This document shows positions 993 to 38,965 of a DNA stretch of 64,000 nucleotides, piece by piece. The position numbers were made by a program, and so were the translations under genes. The DNA is from a virus (taxonomy: Duplodnaviria; Caudoviricetes), in the IMG/VR virus record IMGVR_UViG_3300026260_000475, positions 1 through 64,000 of that record. One strand, 5' to 3'. The notes under the pieces are model-generated. The model worked only from the letters and a program-made list of their open reading frames with translations, searched no databases and had not been told where the DNA came from. Position 1 is the stretch's first letter. Each line of letters starts with the position of its first letter.

Positions 993-2517
993 TTTTTATT
1001 TTGATTATTTTTTAACCAATTCTAATAAAATTGTAGAGTTACAAGGTGAAGATGTAATACCGTTACCAAATGCTATGCCTCCTGAATTTTATATTTCGTT
1101 ACAAAATAAAATTCCAAAAGAAACAAATGATTTTTATCATGGGTATTATATGAATCCTGGTGGATGGGCTCGAGAATTAAGATTGATAGAATATTTTAGA
1201 GAATGTAAAGAAATTAATTTTGAAATTAAAAATATTCAAGATACAGTTGAGAAGAATGAATATAATTGGTATGTTATAGAAATAACTGATGTACGATCAA
1301 TAACAATCGCAAATCCACTTACTAATATTCCTAAAAATACTATAAAATTTATTAAAGAAAATGATTTAAAAATATTATTGTGGTGTCCATTTCAAGATAT
1401 TATATATTATAAAGATGATTTGAAGTGGGATAATATTTTTAAGAAGGATTCTTCTTTAGTTGAAAGTGAAAGTGATATATTTAGATTATATTCAATTTAT
1501 GAATTTCTTAGATATTATGATATAAAATTTGAAAATTTGTATTTAAGACACCATACTTTAAATTATTCTGAAGTTATAGAGAAATTAAGTTTAATTTATC
1601 CACAAATTGAAAATTTATCACAAATGAATATATTACCAACAAATGGGTGTCTTTGGGAATATGTATTTTATTTATATAAAGAAGGATATCAACCAATGTT
1701 TTCACATTTAAAAGAAAACAGAAAGAGTTTGGATGAAATAGATTTATCAAAACCTCGTAAAAAGTGGTTTATGTCATTAAATGGTTATGTTAAACCACAT
1801 AGGGTGAGATTATTAGCAGAATTAAAAAGTAGAAATATATTAGATAAAGGTTATTGTAGTTTAATTGGAATGCCATTTGAATATGATTTTGATGATAGTG
1901 GAAATCCATTGAGGTATAACAGAGAAGAACTGGATGAATTACTTGTGCTTATCGATAAAGGTATGGGTGGATATCATTGGGCACATGTAGATAATTTAAT
2001 TGAAGAAACAAAATTCATAGTAGAAAATATACCAATGTTAGTAGATGGTTATACTTTTCATGATAATGATAAAGCATTGCCTGTAGATAATATTTTGGAT
2101 AGTTATTTTTCTATTATAACAGAAACAACAATGGATCCATTATATACTAATGATGCTGAGAGGATAGATAGAGATAAATTTATTTATAGTTTATTAATAT
2201 CTGAAAAAACTTATAAACCATTATATTATATGCATCCATTTATAGTTTTAGGATGTCCAGGTACTTTAAAATATTTAAGGTCTATTGGGTTCGAAACATT
2301 TCCTGAATTTTTTGATGAATCGTATGATGATATATATGATAACGAAAAACGGTATAGGTTTTGTCTTAGAGAAATTGAAAAATTGTGTAATAAAGACTTA
2401 AAAGAAGTACATGAATTATATCAGAGTATTATACCTAAATTAAAGCATAATAAAGAGATGATTGAACAATATGATTTTAAAAAAGAATTGGAGAGGTGGT
2501 TTAGCTATGAAAACTAA
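976..2517 (+). CDS. Uncharacterised 'ET..EK..KP..HPF' family protein (possible glycosyltransferase-like fold)
   Basis: C-terminal SIITET...ISEKTYKP..MHPFIVLG...GFETF..FFDESYD, shared with six paralogs in the window. Confidence 0.55.
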   Translation: MIKKFNFYFDYFLTNSNKIVELQGEDVIPLPNAMPPEFYISLQNKIPKETNDFYHGYYMNPGGWARELRLIEYFRECKEINFEIKNIQDTVEKNEYNWYVIEITDVRSITIANPLTNIPKNTIKFIKENDLKILLWCPFQDIIYYKDDLKWDNIFKKDSSLVESESDIFRLYSIYEFLRYYDIKFENLYLRHHTLNYSEVIEKLSLIYPQIENLSQMNILPTNGCLWEYVFYLYKEGYQPMFSHLKENRKSLDEIDLSKPRKKWFMSLNGYVKPHRVRLLAELKSRNILDKGYCSLIGMPFEYDFDDSGNPLRYNREELDELLVLIDKGMGGYHWAHVDNLIEETKFIVENIPMLVDGYTFHDNDKALPVDNILDSYFSIITETTMDPLYTNDAERIDRDKFIYSLLISEKTYKPLYYMHPFIVLGCPGTLKYLRSIGFETFPEFFDESYDDIYDNEKRYRFCLREIEKLCNKDLKEVHELYQSIIPKLKHNKEMIEQYDFKKELERWFSYEN

Positions 2518-10674: not shown

Positions 10675-11961
10675 ATGGAAAAAGTAATCATAGTAAACCC
10701 TGATGCAAAAATGGACGCCAAACAATTTGCGTATGCACCGTTAGGTCCATTATACATTGCAGCTGTCTTAGAGAGAGATGGTTTCGAATGTGAGTTATGG
10801 GATTTAAGGGAAGACTTCAATACATATGATAATCCACCAGAGGGTGACATTTATTGTTTAACAGCAGTTACACCACAAATAGATGATATGAAAGAAGTGG
10901 CTCGTAATATCAAAAAGAAATATGGTGATAAGGCATATACCATTATTGGTGGTCCTCACGCAACTTGGTTACCTGAAGATTGTGTCGACCATTTCGATTG
11001 TGTAGTTCAAGATGAGGCAGAGAGTATTATAACAAAGATTTGTACAGAGAAACCAACAGGTGTTCATAGAGGTGATAGAGTTGTTGATTTAGATACGATA
11101 CCACATCCAGCAAGACACTTACTTCCCGACCATAGAGCAGCTAGTGCAGATTTGTGGGGTGGATACAACTACGAAAGTAATGTGATTGGTGCAACACTTA
11201 TGTCAAGTAGAGGTTGTCCTTTCGCTTGTGCTTTTTGTGCTAACCTACAACAAAAGACAAGATTTAGAAGTGCTGAGAATATCGTAGAAGAAATAAAACT
11301 TATGATTGATAAGTATGGTGTAAAACATTTTAGATTCTTAGATGACAACATAATCATAGATAAGAAAAGGTTTGAAAGATTAGCACCGATGTTGCACGAA
11401 TTAGATATTAGATTCAGATGTTCTATTAGTTCGGTATTATTGAATGATGAATATTGTGAGTTATTATATCATGCAGGTTGTAGAGAAGTTGGTATAGGTT
11501 TTGAATCAGCAGATGACGACATACTAAAACTTATTAACAAAGCTGGTAAAGCAACTAACAATATGCACAAAGATGCAGTGCAAGTTATACAGAAGTGGGG
11601 AATGAAAGCTAAGGTTTATATTATTACAGGTTTACCTGGTGAAACAAAAGAATCAATAGAAGCAACAAAGAAGTTTGTATTAGATTTAAAACCTGATAAG
11701 TGGATTTGTTTATTATTCACACCTTATCCTGGTACACCGATTTATATGAATCCAGATTTATATGGTGTAGAGATAATACACAAGAGATTTAGAGAATATG
11801 TTCAGTCGTATCCATCAAAGAGTCATGTAAATCTTAAAAAGGTAGGTAATGGAGAGATATTGGCAACAAATAAAGATTTAGAAGAAAGGTTTGAAGATTT
11901 GTATCATTGGTTAAACAAATTAAATCCAGAATCTATGGAGTATAGTTCATTTAATGGTTAG
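10675..11961 (+). CDS. Cobalamin-binding (class B) radical SAM enzyme
   Basis: PLGPLYIAA, IIGGPHAT (B12-binding domain), SRGCPFACAFC, GFES, GLPGET, PYPGT. Confidence 0.9.
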   Translation: MEKVIIVNPDAKMDAKQFAYAPLGPLYIAAVLERDGFECELWDLREDFNTYDNPPEGDIYCLTAVTPQIDDMKEVARNIKKKYGDKAYTIIGGPHATWLPEDCVDHFDCVVQDEAESIITKICTEKPTGVHRGDRVVDLDTIPHPARHLLPDHRAASADLWGGYNYESNVIGATLMSSRGCPFACAFCANLQQKTRFRSAENIVEEIKLMIDKYGVKHFRFLDDNIIIDKKRFERLAPMLHELDIRFRCSISSVLLNDEYCELLYHAGCREVGIGFESADDDILKLINKAGKATNNMHKDAVQVIQKWGMKAKVYIITGLPGETKESIEATKKFVLDLKPDKWICLLFTPYPGTPIYMNPDLYGVEIIHKRFREYVQSYPSKSHVNLKKVGNGEILATNKDLEERFEDLYHWLNKLNPESMEYSSFNG

Positions 11962-31013: not shown

Positions 31014-32284
31014 TGAAAGATTTAAAATATTTTTGTTCACATTTATTTACTTCCCTAAGTTTTGACCACGCAGGTAGGGTTAGGGTTTGTTGTAACAATT
31101 ATGAAGTACCAACGGGAGAAGACCTTGAACCAATTAATGTATATTCAGAAGATTTTGATGTAAAGAAAGCTTTTAATAGTGATTTACATAATCGGATACG
31201 TAAAAACATTTTAAATAATAAACAAGATGAAAGTTGTATTAGATGTTGGCAAACAGAAGATAATGGAGCAGACAGTTATAGAACTATATGGAATAGTACA
31301 TTAGCATCTGGTTATTTACGAGGTATAATGTTAGATTCTGTTAATGATGATGGAGAAATTGATAAGCCCTTTACAACATTTTTAGATTTTACTATGGGGA
31401 ATAAATGTAATTTAGTATGTAGGATGTGTAATTTACAAAATTCTAACCAATGGGATTTAGAATCTGATTTATTAGGACTTGATATAGAAGGATTTGAGTC
31501 ATCCACTACCTTAGAAGTAGATAAAAAGTTTTTAAGTGATGAATTTTTCGTTAAGAATTTTATGCATTTGAAACAAGTAAACTTTCTTGGTGGAGAACCT
31601 TTGATAATTAAGGAACATTATGAATTTTTAAAGAAATGTATTAAGTTTGGTGTAGCACCTAAGATGATTTTATCTTATACCACTAATTTAACTGTAATTA
31701 AGAAAGAACTTAAAGATTTATGGAAATGTTTTAGACATGTTTCAGTAGGAGTAAGTCTTGATGCTATCGGTCCACTTAATGATTATATTAGATATCCATC
31801 TAAATGGAATGTAATAACTAAAAATTTACTAAAACTATCTAAATTTAGAAATGAAGTAAGTATGGATATTCAAATACACTCAACATTTCAACTATTAAAT
31901 GTTTTAGATTGGGGTGAATTGTTTGATTGGACGTATTCATTATCAGATTTAGGAGTATGGAGAGTACCATTTCCAAATTGGCTTACACATCCAAGTTATT
32001 ATGATTGTCGTATATTGTCAGATGAGTTAAAACAGGACGCAATAGATAGAATTACTAAATCAATAGAGAGTAAAAGTGATACTGAATGGACTGATGGTGA
32101 GAAACAATGGTTAGGTATATTAGATAGTAATCTGAAAACTATGCAGGAAAGATTAGATGAAGGTTTAGAATTAGATTCGAGACATAAATTACAACATTAT
32201 ACAAAGTTGCTTGATATGAATAGGGACCAATCTATTACAAAAATTAATCCAAAATTAGCAGAATTTATTTATGAGAAGTTATAA
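31013..32284 (+). CDS. N-terminal twitch-domain radical SAM protein
   Basis: FCSHLF...VCC...CIRCW, then CNLVCRMC, LGGEP, YTTN. Confidence 0.9.
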   Translation: MKDLKYFCSHLFTSLSFDHAGRVRVCCNNYEVPTGEDLEPINVYSEDFDVKKAFNSDLHNRIRKNILNNKQDESCIRCWQTEDNGADSYRTIWNSTLASGYLRGIMLDSVNDDGEIDKPFTTFLDFTMGNKCNLVCRMCNLQNSNQWDLESDLLGLDIEGFESSTTLEVDKKFLSDEFFVKNFMHLKQVNFLGGEPLIIKEHYEFLKKCIKFGVAPKMILSYTTNLTVIKKELKDLWKCFRHVSVGVSLDAIGPLNDYIRYPSKWNVITKNLLKLSKFRNEVSMDIQIHSTFQLLNVLDWGELFDWTYSLSDLGVWRVPFPNWLTHPSYYDCRILSDELKQDAIDRITKSIESKSDTEWTDGEKQWLGILDSNLKTMQERLDEGLELDSRHKLQHYTKLLDMNRDQSITKINPKLAEFIYEKL

Positions 32285-33761
32285 ATTATATTTTGGTTGG
32301 GATTATTATAACTATTCTTTAGATGTAGATATAGAAGAAATAATTAGGGAAAAATTTCCAGATTTTCGACCAACAGGTATTTATCCAAATGATTCAGATA
32401 CATTACCTTTAACAGATTCTACCTATGAGCTTACAAATGATTGGCATCAACTAATTACAACACTTGAAAGGTATAATGGTAATGTAGAGATAATACATAA
32501 AGACACTACTGAATTAATACAACAAAATATTCCATTTATTTATCTTATAGGTATAAAGTCTGGTCCACAAATTTGGGGAAGAGGTGATAGAAATAAATTA
32601 TTTCATAATATAAAACAACATACTAAAAATTATATTAAAGATGGTAAGGTATTGGTAATAGTTGATATGTCTGGAGAAGGATATCCAGTAGAAAATTTAG
32701 ACGAATTGACACTTTCTGAAACTGGAGATATTCCGAGTACACCAATAGCTATAGAGAGGGCGTGTACAAGAGAAGATTTTCCGTTTGATAAGGTTTGTTA
32801 TTTAACTGGAAACGCTCAAGCTGTTAATTTTAAAAAATCAAAGATAAAAGCTATAACAATGGTTAATTCTGAGATTAGATTAAAATATCAAAAAAATCCA
32901 AACATGAATCCAACGTGGACAGAGGATAAGTTTAATGAAATATTTGAGTATAAGAAAAAAAATTATCGTAGACCAACAACAAAATATTTTTTAAGTTTGT
33001 GTAAATTGGTAAAGGATTGGAGATTATATCATTCGTTAGGTTTGAATTATTATAATTTACATGAAAAGGGATTAACTTCATTAATTATACCACAAAACGA
33101 ATTAGTTGTATTGAATGAGAGAGAATTTATTGATGAAGATGTTGATGATTTTGAATTTAATAAAAATATAAAAGATTTTAAAGAATATATAAGAGTTATA
33201 AAACTTAAACTTAGGTTAATAGGTAATACTGAACATGGTAAATTTGTAAAGTCGAATGATAACATTCAAAGTTTGCTTAAAAAAATACCTTTATATGTTG
33301 ATTTGAAGTCATTTGAAGAAGAAGATGGTACACCAATAAGTGGATTTACAACTTGGAATTCAAGTTTTTATAATGATTCATTTTTTTCATATTTGTATGA
33401 GAGTTACGCATATAATAATAAAACTAATTATGTGACAGAGAAGTTTTGGAAAACTGTTTTAAATTTTCATCCAACAATATTAGTTACAAATCCATATACT
33501 TTGAGATATTTAAAGGAGAGAGGTTATAAAACATTCTCACCATATATACATGAATTTTATGACGAAGTAGAAGAATTTGACATAAGGTCAGAAATGTTAT
33601 TAAAAGAAGTTAATAGGTTATGTGATATGCGAAAGATAGAATTATTAGATTGGTATGCAAGTCAGTCTGAAACTCTTATTTATAATTTCAAAAAATATGT
33701 AATTGAAGATCCTATAGTAGATGCTGTAAATGAAATTAAGAAAATATATAAATTATTATGA
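32271..33761 (+). CDS. 'ET..EK..KP..HPF' family protein
   Basis: SYLYES...YVTEKFWK...FHP...GYKTFSPYI.E.YD; tandem paralog of 33758. Confidence 0.55.
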   Translation: MRSYKLYFGWDYYNYSLDVDIEEIIREKFPDFRPTGIYPNDSDTLPLTDSTYELTNDWHQLITTLERYNGNVEIIHKDTTELIQQNIPFIYLIGIKSGPQIWGRGDRNKLFHNIKQHTKNYIKDGKVLVIVDMSGEGYPVENLDELTLSETGDIPSTPIAIERACTREDFPFDKVCYLTGNAQAVNFKKSKIKAITMVNSEIRLKYQKNPNMNPTWTEDKFNEIFEYKKKNYRRPTTKYFLSLCKLVKDWRLYHSLGLNYYNLHEKGLTSLIIPQNELVVLNEREFIDEDVDDFEFNKNIKDFKEYIRVIKLKLRLIGNTEHGKFVKSNDNIQSLLKKIPLYVDLKSFEEEDGTPISGFTTWNSSFYNDSFFSYLYESYAYNNKTNYVTEKFWKTVLNFHPTILVTNPYTLRYLKERGYKTFSPYIHEFYDEVEEFDIRSEMLLKEVNRLCDMRKIELLDWYASQSETLIYNFKKYVIEDPIVDAVNEIKKIYKLL

Positions 33762-35308
33762 AGAACATTAGATTTGGTTGGGATTATTTACATTATTCCA
33801 AACAGACGGAAATAAAAAAAATAATAGAGAAAAATTTTAGTGGTTTTTCACCTGATGGAATTTATCCAAATGATTCAGATACACTTCCATTGTTTGATTT
33901 AGAATATCAACCAACAAATGCGTGGCACAATATAGTAAACATATTAGAACATCATCATCAACCTAAAATGACATTGATACATAAAGATACTACTGATTTT
34001 ATCAAGGATAATGAGAGTTTCGTATATATTATAGCAACAAATGGGGGACCAGAGCTCTGGTGTGGTGGAGACACGGAGAGAAATACCTTATTTCATAATA
34101 TAAAAGAACATACAAAAGAACATATTAGAAAAGGTAAGGTGGTAGTTACTATAGATTTGTCGTTTGAAGGATTTCCAATTGATGGAACTGATGAAATGAG
34201 TATATTGGATATGGGTAGACATCCTCATCTAGCAGAAACAGTACATAAAAGAGCAGAAGAAGAAAAATTTCCCATAGAGAATATAGTATTTTTAAGTGCT
34301 AATCATAAAGATGTAGAGTATTATAAAGAATGGTGTGAAGAAAAGAATATAAAAAAACCAATGAATTGGATTTTACTTGATTGGTGTGAAAAAGCAATCT
34401 CGTCAGATTTTAAACACTTGGAAGATACTTTTGAAGATAATTTTAATTATAAAAAAGATAACATAGATACTATAAAACATTATTTGTGTCTATGTAGACG
34501 ATTAAAAACTCCAAGAATATTTCATCATTTGGGTTTGAATTATTTTAATTTATTAGATAAAGGTTCTGTATCTTGTATACTACCTAAATGGGAAATTCGT
34601 ACAGTTTTTAAGGATATAGATAGAACTAAAATGGAAATGAATAATGCAGGTGAGGTAACTTTTAGTGATTGTGCAACCGAAGATGATACAGAGTTTAATA
34701 AAACATTAAAAGATAGTGTATTTTTAGATGATATAGTGGACGAGTGGTGGACAAAATTTAATCATTTTGGAGTATTAGGTAGAAGAAGATATTTGTTTCC
34801 GTTCAGACGAAAGAAAAATATTAAAAGTTTTTTAAAAAAATTACCTTTGTTAGTGGATAAAACAAGTTTTAATACTTTAGATTCATTTCATCATTGGGAT
34901 ACTAAGTTATATAAGGATACTATGTTTTCTTATGTGTATGAGACTTGGTCAATGTCTACAAATATGGTGTTTTTTTCAGAAAAGATTTACAAATGTATTT
35001 TAAATTACCATCCATTTTTGGGAATGATTAATTATCAGACTATAGATTTTATGAAACGTAATGGTTATAAGAGTTTTTCACCCTGGATTGATGAAACTTA
35101 TGATATTATTTCAGATCCAGATGAAAGAAGTGAATATTTATTTAAAGAATTACAAAGTTTATGTGAGATGCCTATAAATAAGTTATTAGATTGGTATGGA
35201 GCTCAGTCTGATGTATTAATTCACAATAGGGAAGTATTTATGACTAATAAACATTTAGAGAATAGTACAAAACAATTTTTAAAAGTTTGGGAAAAACATT
35301 ATGAATAA
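33758..35308 (+). CDS. 'ET..EK..KP..HPF' family protein
   Basis: SYVYET...FSEKIYK...YHPF...GYKSFSPWIDETYD; shares FGWDY and GIYPNDSDTLPL with 32271. Confidence 0.55.
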   Translation: MKNIRFGWDYLHYSKQTEIKKIIEKNFSGFSPDGIYPNDSDTLPLFDLEYQPTNAWHNIVNILEHHHQPKMTLIHKDTTDFIKDNESFVYIIATNGGPELWCGGDTERNTLFHNIKEHTKEHIRKGKVVVTIDLSFEGFPIDGTDEMSILDMGRHPHLAETVHKRAEEEKFPIENIVFLSANHKDVEYYKEWCEEKNIKKPMNWILLDWCEKAISSDFKHLEDTFEDNFNYKKDNIDTIKHYLCLCRRLKTPRIFHHLGLNYFNLLDKGSVSCILPKWEIRTVFKDIDRTKMEMNNAGEVTFSDCATEDDTEFNKTLKDSVFLDDIVDEWWTKFNHFGVLGRRRYLFPFRRKKNIKSFLKKLPLLVDKTSFNTLDSFHHWDTKLYKDTMFSYVYETWSMSTNMVFFSEKIYKCILNYHPFLGMINYQTIDFMKRNGYKSFSPWIDETYDIISDPDERSEYLFKELQSLCEMPINKLLDWYGAQSDVLIHNREVFMTNKHLENSTKQFLKVWEKHYE

Positions 35309-36818
35309 AAAAAGAATACCTTTATATCACGAGAGAGCAATAGGAGAGTTTGTATGGGGTGGACATAGTGGAATGGGTTCAGATAGAGATGGTAGTTCTA
35401 CTTTACCATTCCCTAACTGTATACCTGATTGTGTTTATGATGAATTTTTGGAATCGGATAGTGATGACACTAACTGGTTCTTACAAAATGAAAGTAAGGA
35501 AGTACCAAGGCTTAGGGAAGAAGGTAAACAACCATTTCAAACGATGTCACATTATGGATTTTTAGTTACTCCAGAATCAGAAAAAGAAAATTTAAACGCA
35601 ATAGTTGACGAATTTGAGTTAGTATTGACGAATAGTAGAAAGGAAAAGTACGTTTATTTAGTACAACCACAGTCAGTAGATGGTAATGATATTTTTGAAG
35701 TTATAAGTTATAATACACCGAAGGATGTAATGGAAGATTTATCAAATGATAGAGCTGTTTTGTGTCTCTCATTTATTCAAGAAGGAGATAGTTATGATGG
35801 ATTGTTTTCAGACCTACATAAGTTTTGTGATAAAAATACTATACCAAGAAAGAATTTTGTATTTTGTTCGAATAATGCCACTTTAGAAATTGAATATGAT
35901 AAATATTGTGAGGAAAATAGTATTACAGATAAGTCTACCATGATTTCAATTTATTATTATTATAATCATGTTTCAACAATGTATAGATTAGATTATAAGT
36001 GTTATAAAAATGGATGGGAGCCACCAACATTTAGGGAAGTGAGTAAAGATTATCATGATGGGTTTAGAATTAATACATTAGAGAAATTTAATCCTTTGAG
36101 AAAGGAGATTAGACCATATCATTATATGTGTTATAATAGACAACCAAAATTACATAGAACATTAATGGTAGCTTATTTGATGAAAGAGAATTTACTTGAT
36201 AAGGGATTGACAAGTTTAGGTTCTGTATATACTATACCAGCTGTTGAAGGAGATCAGTTTATACCTACATATAGGAATAGAAGAACACCAATATATACTG
36301 AAGAAGAAAAGGCTAAAATAATGCCATATTGGGAAAAAGTTAAAGAACAATCACCATTTCTTGTAGATTTAAAAGAAGAACAAATGAAACATGTTTGGGA
36401 ATCTTCTTGGATGGACATTTTTCCAGTTATTCATAACAAATCTTATTTTTCAATAGTGAGTTCTACAAGTTTTGATACTACCTGGATGCACCCTGACGAA
36501 AAATTTTGGAAGGAATTGGGACAATTTAAACCATTTATTTGGGTGGGTCCACCACATTCATTACAACATCTACACTCACAAGGATTTAAGACATTTTCAC
36601 CTTGGATTGATGAATCATATGATGAAGAAGAAGATTGTGAAAAACGATTCTTGATGATAGTGAAAGAAGTTAAACGATTGTGTGATATGAGTTTAGAAGA
36701 AATGCACGAGTGGTATCACGAAATGGAAGATATTTTGAAACATAATTGGAAGAGAATATTAAATTATAATCCTTCACCTTTTTTTAAACCATACAATAAA
36801 CTTTATGAGTTGTTATAA
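35301..36818 (+). CDS. 'ET..EK..KP..HPF' family protein
   Basis: CYNR..K.HR, SIVSST...PDEKFWK...KPF...GFKTFSPWIDESYD. Confidence 0.55.
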   Translation: MNKKRIPLYHERAIGEFVWGGHSGMGSDRDGSSTLPFPNCIPDCVYDEFLESDSDDTNWFLQNESKEVPRLREEGKQPFQTMSHYGFLVTPESEKENLNAIVDEFELVLTNSRKEKYVYLVQPQSVDGNDIFEVISYNTPKDVMEDLSNDRAVLCLSFIQEGDSYDGLFSDLHKFCDKNTIPRKNFVFCSNNATLEIEYDKYCEENSITDKSTMISIYYYYNHVSTMYRLDYKCYKNGWEPPTFREVSKDYHDGFRINTLEKFNPLRKEIRPYHYMCYNRQPKLHRTLMVAYLMKENLLDKGLTSLGSVYTIPAVEGDQFIPTYRNRRTPIYTEEEKAKIMPYWEKVKEQSPFLVDLKEEQMKHVWESSWMDIFPVIHNKSYFSIVSSTSFDTTWMHPDEKFWKELGQFKPFIWVGPPHSLQHLHSQGFKTFSPWIDESYDEEEDCEKRFLMIVKEVKRLCDMSLEEMHEWYHEMEDILKHNWKRILNYNPSPFFKPYNKLYELL

Positions 36819-36826
36819 TTATAAGT

Positions 36827-37780
36827 ATGGATACTATAAAATTAGGATTTAATATATATGATATTAGAGATTTTTTTGATAATTCTTATGTTAAAGAATA
36901 TGAAGAATCTGTAATTAGCGTACGAAAATATTTTTCGAGTAAATTAAATTTATGTCAAAAAAGATTACCATATGAAGATGGATGTCCATCGTGGAATAGT
37001 GATTTTATAAAATATATGGATAATTTATTAGATTCTGATTATTCTTATTTGTATGAAAAAACATATTATCATAAAGAAACTGATAATATATATATACAAA
37101 TGGATTATAATTTCACTAAGGATTGTTTTGAATATTTTGATAAACACAATATAGATCAAAATACTATAAATGGTGAGATTCCTGGCGTAAGTACTATATC
37201 TAATGGGTTTTATCATCAATGTCCATTTCACGAAGTGGAAGGTTTTAATAGATTAAAAGCCGCAATGAAATCAGGTTCGACTTTAGTAGATTATTTGTTA
37301 ATGACTGACGATATTAATTTTAAATTAATGAAATTATGTAATGGTAGTGAAGAATTACCAATTGATTCTAAAGTTGGAGACTGGACAGAATCAGAGGAAA
37401 ATTTAATTAATTTAACGTCAGCAGAACGAAAAAGAAAGATATGGTTAAATGTATTATATGCAAAACAATTCCATCCATACCATCAAGATGGACAAGGTGA
37501 TAGAAATAGAAAGTTTACTTGTTTAAATTATCCAAATGTTGGTAGAACACTTAAAGATGGTGGATTGTTTAGATATTATGACGAAATACCAGTTAGTGGA
37601 TTTACAAAATGGAATGTTAATATAGATAAAGATTCTTATCACGAGATATTATGTAATTATACGAAAGTTATAATATTAAATCATTCTATTGATAATGATA
37701 TAGTAGGAAACCTATATCATCAAGTTACTAAAAATCTTGGGGAAGTCAGATATAACTTATATAATACATTTACTGCATAA
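36827..37780 (+). CDS. 2OG-Fe(II) oxygenase-like protein
   Basis: YHQDG...R.FTCLNY....DGG...YHQV.....RY gives the HxD...H...R pattern. Confidence 0.65.
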   Translation: MDTIKLGFNIYDIRDFFDNSYVKEYEESVISVRKYFSSKLNLCQKRLPYEDGCPSWNSDFIKYMDNLLDSDYSYLYEKTYYHKETDNIYIQMDYNFTKDCFEYFDKHNIDQNTINGEIPGVSTISNGFYHQCPFHEVEGFNRLKAAMKSGSTLVDYLLMTDDINFKLMKLCNGSEELPIDSKVGDWTESEENLINLTSAERKRKIWLNVLYAKQFHPYHQDGQGDRNRKFTCLNYPNVGRTLKDGGLFRYYDEIPVSGFTKWNVNIDKDSYHEILCNYTKVIILNHSIDNDIVGNLYHQVTKNLGEVRYNLYNTFTA

Positions 37781-37808
37781 ATTTATTTATGATTTACTAT
37801 AATAACTA

Positions 37809-37817
37809 ACTATTTAT
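37809..37817 (+). promoter_or_regulatory. Candidate promoter element ACTATTTAT
   Basis: The same 9-mer is present in the other real intergenic gap (57433-57441), and here it lies just 5' of the structured RNA element. The AT-rich background makes chance occurrence possible. Confidence 0.35.
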
Positions 37818-37822
37818 ATATA

Positions 37823-37939
37823 AGTCGAGTAGAGCTAACACGGGTGAAAATCCTGAAAGACCTATCCCTCTACATTTAGACTATAAAACACGGGTGGCAT
37901 CAAGGTAAGTTGGTGCCTCCATAATTGGAGGCTTTTTTT
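37823..37939 (+). ncRNA. Candidate cis-regulatory (riboswitch-like) RNA leader of the gmd operon
   Basis: GC-richer island with AGTC/GACT and GTAGAG/CTCTAC helices, a GGGT-GAAA-ATCC tetraloop hairpin, an AACACGGGTG direct repeat, and two mutually exclusive 3' hairpins. Confidence 0.6.
37915..37939 (+). terminator. Intrinsic terminator / SD-sequestering hairpin
   Basis: GCCTCCA-TAAT-TGGAGGC followed by T7. The 3' arm contains GGAGG (37927-37931), 8 nt before GTG 37940. Confidence 0.75.
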
Positions 37940-38965
37940 GTGCACGTATTAATAACGGGTATAACAGGTTTTGTCGGTAGTCATATGGCTGACTATCTTC
38001 TCAAAAATGAACCTAACGTAAAAATCTATGGACTTCGTAAATGGAGAAGTAGATTTGATAATGTAGATCATTTATATAAACATCCTAATGTTACATTTAT
38101 TGAGGGTGATTTATCAGATCGTTCAAGTTTAAACCGAGCTTTACAGATATCTAAACCAGATATTGTATATCACTTCGCAGCCCAGAGTTTTCCTGAGTCA
38201 AGTTTTGTAACACCAACTTTAACATTAACAACAAATGTTATAGGAACTACTAATCTATTAGAAGAACTAAGAAAGGCTAAAGATGATGGTGTATGTGACC
38301 CTGTAATCATTAGTGTATCTTCTTCAGAGGTCTATGGTAATCCTACCAAAGACGAAATTCCAATTACGGAATCAAATCCAATCAGAGCTGCAAATCCCTA
38401 TTCAATTTCAAAAGTTGGACATGATTTGATGTCTCAATACTATTATAGTGCATATGATATGAAAGTTATTACTACTCGAATGTTTTCTCACGAAGGTAAA
38501 AGACGAGGGAAGTTATTTGCATTATCTTCTTTCGCATTCCAAATAGTAAAACATGAAAAATCAAAAGATTTTGGTAAAGAGGGTAGTTGGTATGAAGTTT
38601 ATCATGGTAATTTAAATTCAGTAAGGACTTATAATCATATAGATGATGCAGTTCGTGCTTATTGGTTAGCCGCGACCAAATGTGAATATGGTGAAGTCTA
38701 TAATATAGGGGGAGATGAAACTTGTACGATAGGTGAAGCTTTGGATATGTTGATATCTAAATCAAAAAAACCAGAAATGTTTATAAAATTACAAGATCCT
38801 AATAGAGTAAGACCTACCGATATTACATTACAAGTACCAGATAGTACAAAATTCAGAGAAAAAACAGGTTGGAAACCAACTAAAGGTTTAGAAGAGATAT
38901 GTGATGATTTATTAGACTTTTGGAGAAGTCATAAGGATTTTTGGAGAGACCCAGATGGCCTTTAA
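37940..38965 (+). CDS. gmd: GDP-mannose 4,6-dehydratase-like extended SDR
   Basis: LITGITGFVGSH, HFAAQS, SSSEVYG, PYSISK, GNL.S.R, RPTD. GTG 37940 has a GGAGG SD. Confidence 0.85.
   Translation: MHVLITGITGFVGSHMADYLLKNEPNVKIYGLRKWRSRFDNVDHLYKHPNVTFIEGDLSDRSSLNRALQISKPDIVYHFAAQSFPESSFVTPTLTLTTNVIGTTNLLEELRKAKDDGVCDPVIISVSSSEVYGNPTKDEIPITESNPIRAANPYSISKVGHDLMSQYYYSAYDMKVITTRMFSHEGKRRGKLFALSSFAFQIVKHEKSKDFGKEGSWYEVYHGNLNSVRTYNHIDDAVRAYWLAATKCEYGEVYNIGGDETCTIGEALDMLISKSKKPEMFIKLQDPNRVRPTDITLQVPDSTKFREKTGWKPTKGLEEICDDLLDFWRSHKDFWRDPDGL

What the first reader, a model, noticed from the sequence alone, without database searches (positions are those of the whole stretch)
37823..37942. Riboswitch-like RNA leader with mutually exclusive hairpins controlling the GDP-sugar operon
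Seen in the largest intergenic gap of the island. (1) A 5' domain closed by AGTC 37823-26/GACT 37879-82 and GTAGAG 37829-34/CTCTAC 37868-73 encloses a GGGT-GAAA-ATCC hairpin. (2) AACACGGGTG occurs twice (37837 and 37887). (3) OFF hairpin GCCTCCA-TAAT-TGGAGGC-T7 (37915-37939) both resembles a terminator and buries the GGAGG SD of gmd. (4) ON helix GG-T-GGCATCAA (37893-37903) with TTGGTGCC-T-CC (37910-37920) captures nearly the whole 5' arm of the OFF hairpin. (5) CTATCC 37862-67 can pair with GGGTGG 37892-97 as a pseudoknot that would block the ON helix. Known: this is aptamer plus expression-platform logic, and phage motifs manA and wcaG precede sugar genes, but I cannot match this sequence to them by eye. 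Inference: a possibly new switch sensing a nucleotide-sugar, GTP/GDP, SAM or a protein.
Basis: partly seen in the sequence, partly recalled or inferred. Interest (0 to 1): 0.85.

Follow-up and report, generated by a model that had tools for sequence, protein, structure and literature searches.

The report
Uncatalogued pseudoknotted phage sugar-operon leader RNA
The gap in front of the sugar-dehydratase gene holds one copy of a conserved, pseudoknotted leader RNA that many uncultured marine T4-like phages place before their nucleotide-sugar genes, and it is built like a riboswitch that turns the operon off, although what it senses is unknown.

Summary
The leader at 37811-37942 is real and is not a plain terminator. 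Pattern scans found the same element in 13-24 viral contig stretches and at least 119 marine metagenome stretches. That gave 84-92 distinct sequences.

Covariation supports stems P1, P2 and P3 and a two-part pseudoknot. 96% of cells are paired, against 32-45% in slid controls, and 11 of 19 pairs show compensatory changes.

A hairpin P4 shares 2 nt with the pseudoknot. In 103 of 105 platforms it shares 2-4 nt with a terminator. The terminator's 3' arm carries the SD in 95 of 105.

The first downstream genes are nucleotide-sugar enzymes. Rfam 15 has no match, including wcaG and manA.

- The pseudoknot register differs from the one proposed.
- The 10-mer repeat is not conserved.
- "GDP" specificity is unproven.

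My best reading is an OFF riboswitch-like attenuator with an unknown ligand. This scan found the same motif earlier on other DNA (e1-5858021). It may also sit unnamed in a 2023 catalogue whose supplements I could not open.

The parts
37811..37820 (+). AT-rich promoter-like box (TATTTATATA) ending 2 nt before P1
   Evidence: A box of this type ends 0-6 nt before P1 in 80 of 99 distinct upstream sequences (81 counting one at 10 nt). A control window at -180..-155 has it in 1 of 99. The exact 10-mer occurs 8 times on the + strand and 0 times on the - strand of the 105-kb record. Four of those lie in gaps: this one, and three 25-35 nt before an SD and ATG. Promoter function is inferred.
37823..37826 (+). 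P1, 5' arm (AGTC)
   Evidence: Pairs with 37879-37882 and is predicted by RNAalifold. It is invariant. The 3' arm was fixed by my search pattern, so P1 carries no covariation information except a fifth flanking pair (CG 32, UA 13-18, other 36).
37829..37833 (+). P2, 5' arm (GTAGA)
   Evidence: Pairs with 37869-37873. All 5 pairs show compensatory changes, and 98.8-99.6% of cells are paired.
37835..37840 (+). Conserved junction J2/3 (CTAACA)
   Evidence: The last five letters were fixed by my first pattern. When that pattern was relaxed, variants ending in G or T, or with an extra A, appeared, so the junction is highly but not absolutely conserved.
37841..37855 (+). P3 hairpin of variable length; base pairs 37841:55, 37842:54, 37843:53
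   Evidence: The three base pairs covary (GC 49 / CG 35; GC 49 / GU 25 / UA 8 / AU 2; GC 61 / UA 8 / CG 7 / AU 2). The loop and upper stem range from a 4-nt loop to a 25-nt extended stem in relatives.
37856..37859 (+). Conserved junction AAAG
   Evidence: Invariant, but fixed by the search patterns.
37861..37868 (+). Pseudoknot 5' strand (CC-TAT-CCC)
   Evidence: Pairs 37868:92, 37867:93, 37866:94, 37862:96 and 37861:97. Two free positions covary: GC 47 / CG 39 / UA 1, and UA 37 / AU 18 / CG 16 / unpaired 20. In this window the middle position (T37863 opposite T37895) is unpaired.
37869..37873 (+). P2, 3' arm (TCTAC)
   Evidence: See P2 5' arm.
37879..37882 (+). P1, 3' arm (GACT)
   Evidence: See P1 5' arm. 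Fixed by the search pattern.
37883..37891 (+). A-rich linker between P1 and the pseudoknot 3' strand
   Evidence: The first five letters were fixed by the pattern. The remainder varies in length by 0-9 nt.
37892..37897 (+). Pseudoknot 3' strand (GGGTGG)
   Evidence: See pseudoknot 5' strand. The last two G (37896-97) are also the first two nucleotides of P4.
37896..37917 (+). P4 hairpin (candidate anti-terminator), 8 bp with a 6-nt loop
   Evidence: At least 6 contiguous pairs start at the shared GG in 103 of 105 distinct platforms. Depth 5 is CG 72 / UA 16 / UG 15, and depth 6 is UA 56 / UG 31 / CG 18. The 3' end was chosen to maximise pairing, so the slide control in that call is biased.
37915..37939 (+). 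Intrinsic-terminator-like hairpin (7 bp, loop TAAT) plus T7. Its first 3 nt belong to P4.
   Evidence: Found. It is the only such site on the + strand of the 64-kb window and one of 3 distinct sites in the 105-kb record. It is conserved in 105 of 106 platforms, and 103 of 105 share 2-4 nt with P4.
37927..37931 (+). Shine-Dalgarno GGAGG inside the terminator 3' arm
   Evidence: An SD-like tetramer lies in the 3' arm in 95 of 105 platforms. The start codon follows 5-13 nt after the stem in 101 of 105.
37940..38965 (+). First regulated gene: SDR NDP-hexose 4,6-dehydratase-like, start GTG 37940
   Evidence: Pfam PF16363 at 8.3e-72. No NCBIfam equivalog cut-off is reached. The ORF listing gives TTG 37925, but that codon lies inside the terminator stem, and relatives start with ATG at the position of 37940.

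Best explanation
This is one member of an uncatalogued family of leader RNAs, about 115-120 nt long, from uncultured marine T4-like phages.

Transcription probably starts at a phage promoter box a few nucleotides before P1. The first ~75 nt fold into a compact aptamer-like domain:
- P1 and P2 are stacked around a variable hairpin P3.
- The junctions are highly conserved.
- A two-part pseudoknot joins the strand between P3 and P2 to a G-rich strand after P1.

The last two G of that strand are also the first two nucleotides of hairpin P4. The last 2-4 nt of P4 are also the first nucleotides of a terminator hairpin, and the terminator's 3' arm is the ribosome-binding site of the first gene.

Inferred mechanism:
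- When a ligand (unknown; most likely a small molecule tied to nucleotide-sugar supply) locks the pseudoknot, P4 loses its two closing G pairs. The terminator then forms completely, so transcription stops and any read-through RNA has its SD buried. This is the OFF state.
- Without the ligand, P4 forms first, withholds the base of the terminator, and the sugar-tailoring operon is transcribed and translated. This is the ON state.

What is shown: the conserved structure, the shared nucleotides and the gene association. What is inferred: the promoter, the direction of switching and the existence of a ligand.
For: Family size. It reduces to 84 distinct aptamers, and a covariance model finds 92 hits in 90 loci.

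Structure. RNAalifold on a MAFFT alignment predicts P1, P2 and P3, and 8 of its 12 pairs show compensatory changes. With the pseudoknot added, 95.8-96.2% of cells are paired against 32-45% when the partners are slid. 11 of 19 pairs show compensatory changes. The covariation score is 0.36 against 0.12 for shuffles, and 0 of 500 shuffles reach it. The pseudoknot was not part of the covariance model that made alignment A3, so its counts are not fitted.

Platform. A terminator is present in 105 of 106 platforms. P4 has at least 6 bp in 103 of 105. P4 and the terminator share 2-4 nt in 103 of 105. Median energies are -5.9 kcal/mol for P4 and -7.2 for the terminator, and each falls to about -1.7 without the shared nucleotides. 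The SD lies in the terminator arm in 95 of 105.

Context. Among 111 distinct first downstream proteins, 63 are SDR epimerase/dehydratases, 23 are RmlC-like, 9 are DUF6071, 5 are B12-radical-SAM, 4 are 2OG-Fe oxygenases and 3 are PhyH. Because the first gene varies, autoregulation by its product is unlikely. This terminator is the only one on the + strand of the 64-kb window, with no room for a promoter between it and the start codon. The downstream genes therefore need read-through.

Weak RNA evidence. A contig from a metatranscriptome library spans 37861-37982 without differences, across the terminator into the gene. DNA carry-over is not excluded.
Against: - No ligand was tested, and no binding or termination assay exists.
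- The minimum-free-energy z-score of the window copy is only -0.45.
- The overlaps are short (2 nt with the pseudoknot, mostly 2 nt with the terminator). Shortened versions of all three helices could coexist, which would make this a constitutive structured RNA followed by a terminator.
- The nucleotides that carry the switch logic (GG, CC) are invariant, partly because my patterns fixed them. Covariation therefore cannot show that they alternate partners.
- In 20 of 91 sequences with letters there, including the window, the middle pseudoknot pair is unpaired.
- The sequences are related, so counts are of cells and not of independent events. No R-scape-type test was available.
- About 7-10 of 95 platforms carry a second terminator that does not overlap P4, which the simple model does not explain.
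- The host is unknown, so I cannot say that its RNA polymerase stops at such terminators.
Confidence: 0.55

Rival explanations
1. The element is a protein- or factor-dependent attenuator. It has the same architecture, but the pseudoknotted domain is bound by a phage or host protein, or another macromolecule, rather than a metabolite. That binding decides between P4 and the terminator, for example to time expression of the sugar genes during infection.
For: Everything that supports a cis-acting switch fits this reading equally well. Phages often time genes with dedicated factors. The promoter box is shared with genes of the structural region, which suggests temporal control.
Against: The domain is small, with many invariant unpaired nucleotides in its junctions and a compact pseudoknot. 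By general knowledge, that is typical of metabolite aptamers. The first gene varies, so simple autoregulation is unlikely. No candidate binding protein was identified, and none was searched for.
Confidence: 0.2
2. The element is a cis-acting processive antitermination RNA, comparable in role to EAR (the epsC motif) of Bacillus or put of HK022. The folded domain would modify RNA polymerase so that it reads through the adjacent terminator and through the long sugar gene array.
For: It heads a long co-directional array of polysaccharide-type genes that runs from 37940 without another terminator in the window. From recall, long polysaccharide operons in bacteria often use processive antitermination (EAR, RfaH/ops, LoaP). 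The members with two tandem terminators would be read through naturally under this model.
Against: The nucleotide sharing between pseudoknot, P4 and terminator, kept in 103 of 105 platforms, is not needed for processive antitermination and is the signature of a local switch. No Rfam model, epsC included, matches. No distal terminators exist in the window to be suppressed.
Confidence: 0.1
3. The element is a stand-alone small RNA gene, or simply the terminator of the upstream genes. A ~115-nt structured RNA would be made from its own promoter and ended constitutively by the terminator, acting in trans. The downstream gene would be expressed only by leakage.
For: A conserved promoter-like box lies directly before P1, and a strong terminator lies directly after. 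All three helices could coexist in shortened form. The upstream gene ends 42 nt before P1 with no terminator of its own.
Against: The terminator's 3' arm is the SD in 95 of 105 platforms. The start codon follows within 5-13 nt in 101 of 105, always on the same strand. The element always precedes nucleotide-sugar genes even though the first gene differs. Such coupling is not expected for a trans-acting RNA. A plain terminator would not need a 75-nt covarying domain.
Confidence: 0.1

Closest known systems
wcaG RNA motif (Rfam RF01761; Weinberg et al. 2010, PMC2864571, passages read)
   Same: According to the paper, it is an orphan riboswitch candidate found almost only in marine metagenomes and T4-like phages, in front of genes for exopolysaccharide production. 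That is the same habitat, the same kind of virus and a similar class of gene.
   Different: No match to its covariance model at E<=10 in the window leader, or at E<=1 in 20 loci that hold family members. The wcaG phages named in the paper infect cyanobacteria. The capsid protein here is closest to a Microcystis phage (56%) and to Flavobacterium phages (52%). I did not see the wcaG consensus drawing, so no feature-by-feature comparison was made.
manA RNA motif (Rfam RF01745; same paper, passages read)
   Same: A marine and phage riboswitch candidate upstream of mannose/fructose metabolism and other genes. The paper suspects a pseudoknot.
   Different: No covariance-model match. Per the paper its gene set is broader, including nucleotide synthesis, chaperones and photosynthesis, whereas this family is confined to nucleotide-sugar tailoring enzymes.
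H-type pseudoknot riboswitches that hide the ribosome-binding site or control a terminator (for example SAM-II/SAM-V, preQ1-II; recalled, not tested beyond Rfam)
   Same: A small aptamer closed by a pseudoknot whose 3' strand is handed over to the expression platform, giving OFF logic.
   Different: No sequence or structure match to any of these Rfam models. Here the pseudoknot is bipartite with a 3-nt bulge, sits on a P1-P2-P3 stack, and acts through an intermediate hairpin (P4) on a combined terminator and SD hairpin.
EAR / epsC motif and other processive antitermination leaders of polysaccharide operons (epsC mentioned in PMC2864571; the mechanism is recalled)
   Same: A structured RNA at the head of a long polysaccharide-type operon.
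   Different: No model match. This element is physically interlocked with the adjacent terminator, which processive antiterminators do not require.
Unnamed candidates 'DNAVirus_N' of Fremin et al. 2023 (PMC10690425; abstract and passages read)
   Same: 8495 candidate structured RNAs were predicted from the same collection (IMG/VR). 879 lie within 25 nt upstream of genes and 1241 contain a terminator. This family could be among them.
   Different: The main text does not contain the words epimerase, dehydratase, sugar or riboswitch.

Membership tests
Riboswitch (the kind, not a family) | Conserved structured domain with covariation in the 5' leader | tested here: met
   96% of cells paired, 11 of 19 pairs with compensatory changes, and the three nested stems predicted by RNAalifold.
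Riboswitch (the kind, not a family) | Sits in cis before functionally coherent genes | tested here: met
   among 111 distinct first proteins, 63 SDR, 23 RmlC-like, 9 DUF6071, 5 B12-radical-SAM, 4 2OG-Fe oxygenase and 3 PhyH. Start codon 5-13 nt after the terminator stem in 101 of 105.
Riboswitch (the kind, not a family) | Expression platform with mutually exclusive structures linked to the aptamer | tested here: inconclusive
   Shared nucleotides are kept in 103 of 105 platforms and the energies are near-equal. The overlaps are only 2-4 nt and the shared bases are invariant, so alternation is inferred and not shown.
Riboswitch (the kind, not a family) | Direct binding of a small-molecule ligand without protein, with a ligand-dependent change in expression | not testable with these tools
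   Needs in-line probing, ITC, transcription assays or reporters.
wcaG RNA motif (RF01761) | Scores with the family's covariance model (gathering 'score set by Rfam') | tested here: not met
   No hit at gathering score in the window, none at E<=10 in 37700-38000, and none at E<=1 in 20 member loci.
manA RNA motif (RF01745) | Scores with the family's covariance model | tested here: not met
   no hit.
epsC / EAR motif | Scores with the family's covariance model | tested here: not met
   no hit to any of the 4227 Rfam 15 models, apart from chance hits through the terminator (Phe_leader E=1.2, RyhB E=2.1).
epsC / EAR motif | Promotes read-through of distal, unrelated terminators | not testable with these tools
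   Needs transcription assays. No further + strand terminator exists in the window.
Intrinsic (Rho-independent) terminator | G+C-rich hairpin directly followed by a T-run | tested here: met
   7 bp with 5 GC pairs, loop of 4 nt, T7. Present in 105 of 106 family platforms.
Intrinsic (Rho-independent) terminator | Actually stops the host RNA polymerase | not testable with these tools
   The host is unknown. RNA-library contigs cannot show 3' ends.

The most novel reading that the evidence does not exclude
This is the first riboswitch class that senses a nucleotide-activated sugar, either a host-supplied NDP-hexose or an NDP-4-keto-6-deoxy intermediate or end product. It would be confined to phages. 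The phage would use it to match expression of its glycan-tailoring operon to the host's nucleotide-sugar pool. That would fit the absence of any sugar-1-phosphate nucleotidyltransferase (PF00483) in the four phage records searched, one of them a complete 216-kb genome.
Probability: 0.2. Interest if true: 0.9.

Novelty: new variant of a known kind. Interest (0 to 1): 0.68.

Why it matters
No riboswitch is known to me (from recall) that senses a nucleotide sugar, and the marine phage sugar-gene motifs manA and wcaG were still listed as orphan candidates in the 2010 paper I read.

This family gives a small, well-defined RNA of about 75 nt with a clear read-out: a terminator and the SD combined in one hairpin. 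It offers dozens of natural variants for mutational design, so ligand screening could start directly.

The family appears restricted to uncultured marine T4-like phages. Across one genome for each of 185,579 prokaryote species there was 1 true hit, on a short MAG contig. There were no hits in 50,697 GenBank phage records by blastn with four variants. It would therefore be an example of a regulatory RNA class evolved and kept by viruses to control auxiliary glycan genes.

It also marks where the long sugar-gene array of this phage is divided into units. It is the only terminator on the coding strand in 64 kb.

Tried and rejected
Single-sequence thermodynamics. The window leader folds no better than shuffles (z = -0.45), so this is not informative for a switch.

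First loose pattern. The covariance model found 2 true members in the 100 of those 115 loci I searched, L053-L152. The other 15 were screened only by my regular expressions.

Chance hits of the patterns, dropped before all counts: L216, L237, L257 (metagenome), L299, L300 (genomes) and L309, L316 (viral). They lie in G+C-richer, apparently coding sequence and lack the 5' arm.

GenBank phages. blastn with four family variants found nothing meaningful (best E = 0.5 in AT-rich flank, no match). No cultured phage or host could be named. blastn is weak for 80-nt RNAs, so absence is not proven.

The 10-mer repeat as a functional feature is rejected (and the listing).

The outer extension of the ON helix cannot be tested. 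Pairing is about 95-100% at shifts -1, 0 and +1 because G pairs with any pyrimidine.

Additional copies. One copy only in G000. One each in G003, G004 and G005, none in G002 (215 kb, complete), and only a partial hit at E = 0.94 in G001. Two copies in L243 and in L247. Of 47 loci fetched with the dehydratase protein, 6 hold the motif within 3 kb.

RNA runs. Six RNA libraries hold 6-18% of the sampled words. I laid four of them, all as contigs. Parts without cover, and the places where contigs stop, say nothing. Transcription, 5' ends and 3' ends are not shown.

Ligand identity. Nothing in the sequence let me choose among candidates.

Not used: complex prediction, structure prediction, fold search, the search for homologous proteins and the search of protein representatives, because the question concerns an RNA.
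Full report
**What is in the window.** The 159-nt gap between the ORF ending at 37780 and the gene starting at 37940 is read. The consensus scan finds one terminator-like site there, a 7-bp stem with 5 GC pairs, a 4-nt loop and T7. My own scan of the whole 105-kb record finds only three distinct terminator-like sites on the coding strand. This one is the only site within the 64-kb window. The other two lie at about 77.3 kb and 98.3 kb, the first just downstream of the Gp23 match. The gene after the gap is an SDR 4,6-dehydratase-like protein (Pfam PF16363, 8.3e-72). It reaches no NCBIfam equivalog cut-off, and dTDP-glucose 4,6-dehydratase scores above gmd. The name 'gmd' and a GDP specificity are therefore unproven. 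Its start is GTG 37940, and relatives have ATG at that position. The TTG at 37925 that the ORF listing reports lies inside the terminator stem.

**Is it catalogued?** Rfam 15 gives no hit at gathering score anywhere in the window. At E<=10 in 37700-38000 it gives only chance hits through the terminator (Phe_leader E=1.2, RyhB E=2.1, and a 22-nt viral pseudoknot E=5.3). At E<=1 it gives nothing in 20 other loci that hold the element. So manA, wcaG, epsC and all known riboswitch classes in that library are excluded as families.

**Relatives.** I fetched 47 viral loci with the dehydratase protein. Six of them hold a homologous leader within 3 kb. From these I derived patterns:
- The strict pattern found 5 viral stretches.
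- A second pattern that frees the 5' half found 24 viral stretches, 2 of them chance.

Of the three genome hits, only one is real. It sits on a 14.7-kb MAG contig of 30% G+C, which I suspect is a phage contig binned with a bacterium; the other two are chance hits in coding sequence.

After removing seven chance hits, 84 distinct aptamer sequences remained. A covariance model built from them found 92 matches in 90 loci. Two of these were second copies on the same contig. The model also found one copy each in the records G000, G003 (216 kb, rated complete), G004 and G005. blastn of four variants against 50,697 GenBank phage records found nothing.

**Structure.**
- On the structure-blind MAFFT alignment A1, RNAalifold predicts exactly P1 (4 bp), P2 (5 bp) and P3 (3 bp at the base). 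8 of these 12 pairs carry compensatory changes.
- I added a fifth P1 pair and a two-part pseudoknot. 95.8% of 1594 cells then pair, against 32-45% for slid partners. 11 of 19 pairs have changes on both sides. The covariation score is 0.360 against 0.122 for shuffles, and 0 of 500 shuffles reach it.
- On the model-made alignment A3 of 92 sequences the figures are 96.2% and 0.369. The pseudoknot was not in the model.
- Its two free positions covary: GC 47 / CG 39 / UA 1, and UA 37 / AU 18 / CG 16, with 20 unpaired. The window copy is among the unpaired.
- P3 ranges from a stem with a 4-nt loop to a 25-nt extended stem, as real RNA hairpins do.

Caveats: my patterns fixed several motifs, so their invariance is partly by construction. 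When I relaxed the pattern, the junction before P3 showed three variants. The sequences are related, so the counts are of cells and not of events.

**Expression platform.** The counts come from 106 distinct platforms:
- 105 have a perfect terminator-like hairpin followed by a T-run.
- 103 of those 105 have a hairpin P4 of at least 6 contiguous pairs that starts at the last two G of the pseudoknot strand.
- In 103 of 105, P4's 3' end shares 2 nt (76 cases), 3 nt (21) or 4 nt (6) with the terminator's 5' arm.
- P4 covaries at depth 5 (CG 72 / UA 16 / UG 15) and depth 6 (UA 56 / UG 31 / CG 18).

The 3' end of P4 was chosen to maximise pairing, so the slide control is biased.

Median folding energies are -5.9 kcal/mol for P4 and -7.2 for the terminator. 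Each drops to about -1.7 when the shared nucleotides go to the competitor. The terminator's 3' arm holds an SD-like tetramer in 95 of 105 platforms. The start codon follows 5-13 nt after the stem in 101 of 105. Seven of 95 platforms show two perfect terminator-like hairpins in a row, and three more have a long spacer.

**Context.**
- The 111 distinct first downstream proteins are almost all nucleotide-sugar tailoring enzymes: 63 SDR epimerase/dehydratases, 23 RmlC-like cupins, 9 DUF6071, 5 B12-binding radical-SAM, 4 2OG-Fe(II) oxygenases and 3 PhyH.
- An AT-rich box ends 0-6 nt before P1 in 80 of 99 distinct upstream sequences (81 counting one at 10 nt), against 1 of 99 control windows.
- Its exact form in the window occurs 8 times on the + strand and never on the - strand of the record. 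Three further copies lie 25-35 nt before an SD and ATG in the structural-gene region. I therefore read it as a phage promoter; this is an inference.
- G000, G003 and G005 encode a T4-type major capsid protein (Pfam PF07068). Its nearest cultured relatives are Microcystis phage Mel-JY01 (56%) and Flavobacterium phages (52%). The host is unknown.
- None of four phage records has an NTP_transferase (PF00483), while all 14 control genomes do. The pathway therefore probably starts from host-made NDP-sugars.

**RNA evidence.** It is weak. Contigs from RNA libraries cover parts of the leader. One contig, without differences, runs from 37861 to 37982 across the terminator into the gene. DNA in such libraries is not excluded, and contigs show no ends.

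**Mechanism and rivals.**
- *Best-supported reading (0.55):* an OFF switch. A ligand-stabilised pseudoknot takes the two G that close P4. P4 then releases the base of the terminator, which both stops transcription and hides the SD. Without ligand, P4 forms first and the operon is expressed.
- *Protein- or factor-dependent attenuator (0.2):* same architecture, different effector.
- *Processive antiterminator like EAR or put (0.1):* argued against by the local interlocking with the terminator.
- *Stand-alone small RNA or plain terminator (0.1):* argued against by the strict coupling to the SD and start codon and by the 75-nt covarying domain.

What I could not show: ligand binding, actual alternation of the shared nucleotides, the transcription start, and termination in the host.

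**Novelty.** The family is absent from Rfam 15. My four literature searches found no description. The closest in spirit are the orphan marine phage motifs wcaG and manA (PMC2864571, passages read). This scan already reported the same motif from another genome (finding e1-5858021). I reached the same reading independently before seeing that note.

I rate it a new family working on a known principle. Interest is 0.68, and would rise to about 0.9 if it proves to sense a nucleotide sugar.

Noticed in passing
G000 record 77284-77305 and 98272-98303 (beyond the window); window 37915-37939: By my scan, only three distinct intrinsic-terminator-like sites lie on the coding strand of the 105-kb record. 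One lies just downstream of the Gp23-type major capsid match (75808-77196). The whole 64-kb window has a single one.
   Followed up: partly
window 1669, 6717, 8820, 37811; record 65839, 68138, 70236, 95362: The 10-mer TATTTATATA occurs 8 times on the + strand and 0 times on the - strand. At 65839, 70236 and 95362 it lies 25-35 nt before an SD and ATG, like a phage promoter. It is not the T4 late-promoter word as I recall it. The other four copies lie inside ORFs.
   Followed up: partly
L243:225-305(-) and 2359-2451(-); L247:1046-1123(+) and 11273-11320(+): Two metagenome contigs carry two copies of the leader, about 2 kb and 10 kb apart. Some phages therefore control more than one unit with it.
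   Followed up: no
L205, L202/L246, L231, L275, L182/L213 (platform region): Some members have two terminator-like hairpins in tandem. In L205, L231 and L275 the second is preceded by a short stretch resembling a P4 3' arm, as if a second platform had been added by recombination.
   Followed up: no
G000, G003, G004, G005 whole records: No sugar-1-phosphate nucleotidyltransferase (Pfam PF00483) in any of the four phage records, one of them rated complete, although they carry many NDP-sugar tailoring genes. All 14 control genomes have one.
   Followed up: partly
L270:2216-3706(+): One first downstream ORF is 497 aa, about 150 aa longer than the dehydratase alone. It links the dehydratase and RmlC-like groups in my clustering, which suggests a fused dehydratase-epimerase. 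The domains were not checked individually.
   Followed up: no
window 37579-37631: A contig from an oligo-dT RNA library that matches the upstream gene at about 95% skips 51 nt here and has 9 other letters instead. This is probably an indel variant of a related phage rather than processing.
   Followed up: no
window 36827-37780 and 32271-36818: The four ORFs upstream of the leader (496, 516, 505 and 317 aa) have no Pfam family at E<=0.001. The 317-aa ORF also has no NCBIfam family.
   Followed up: no
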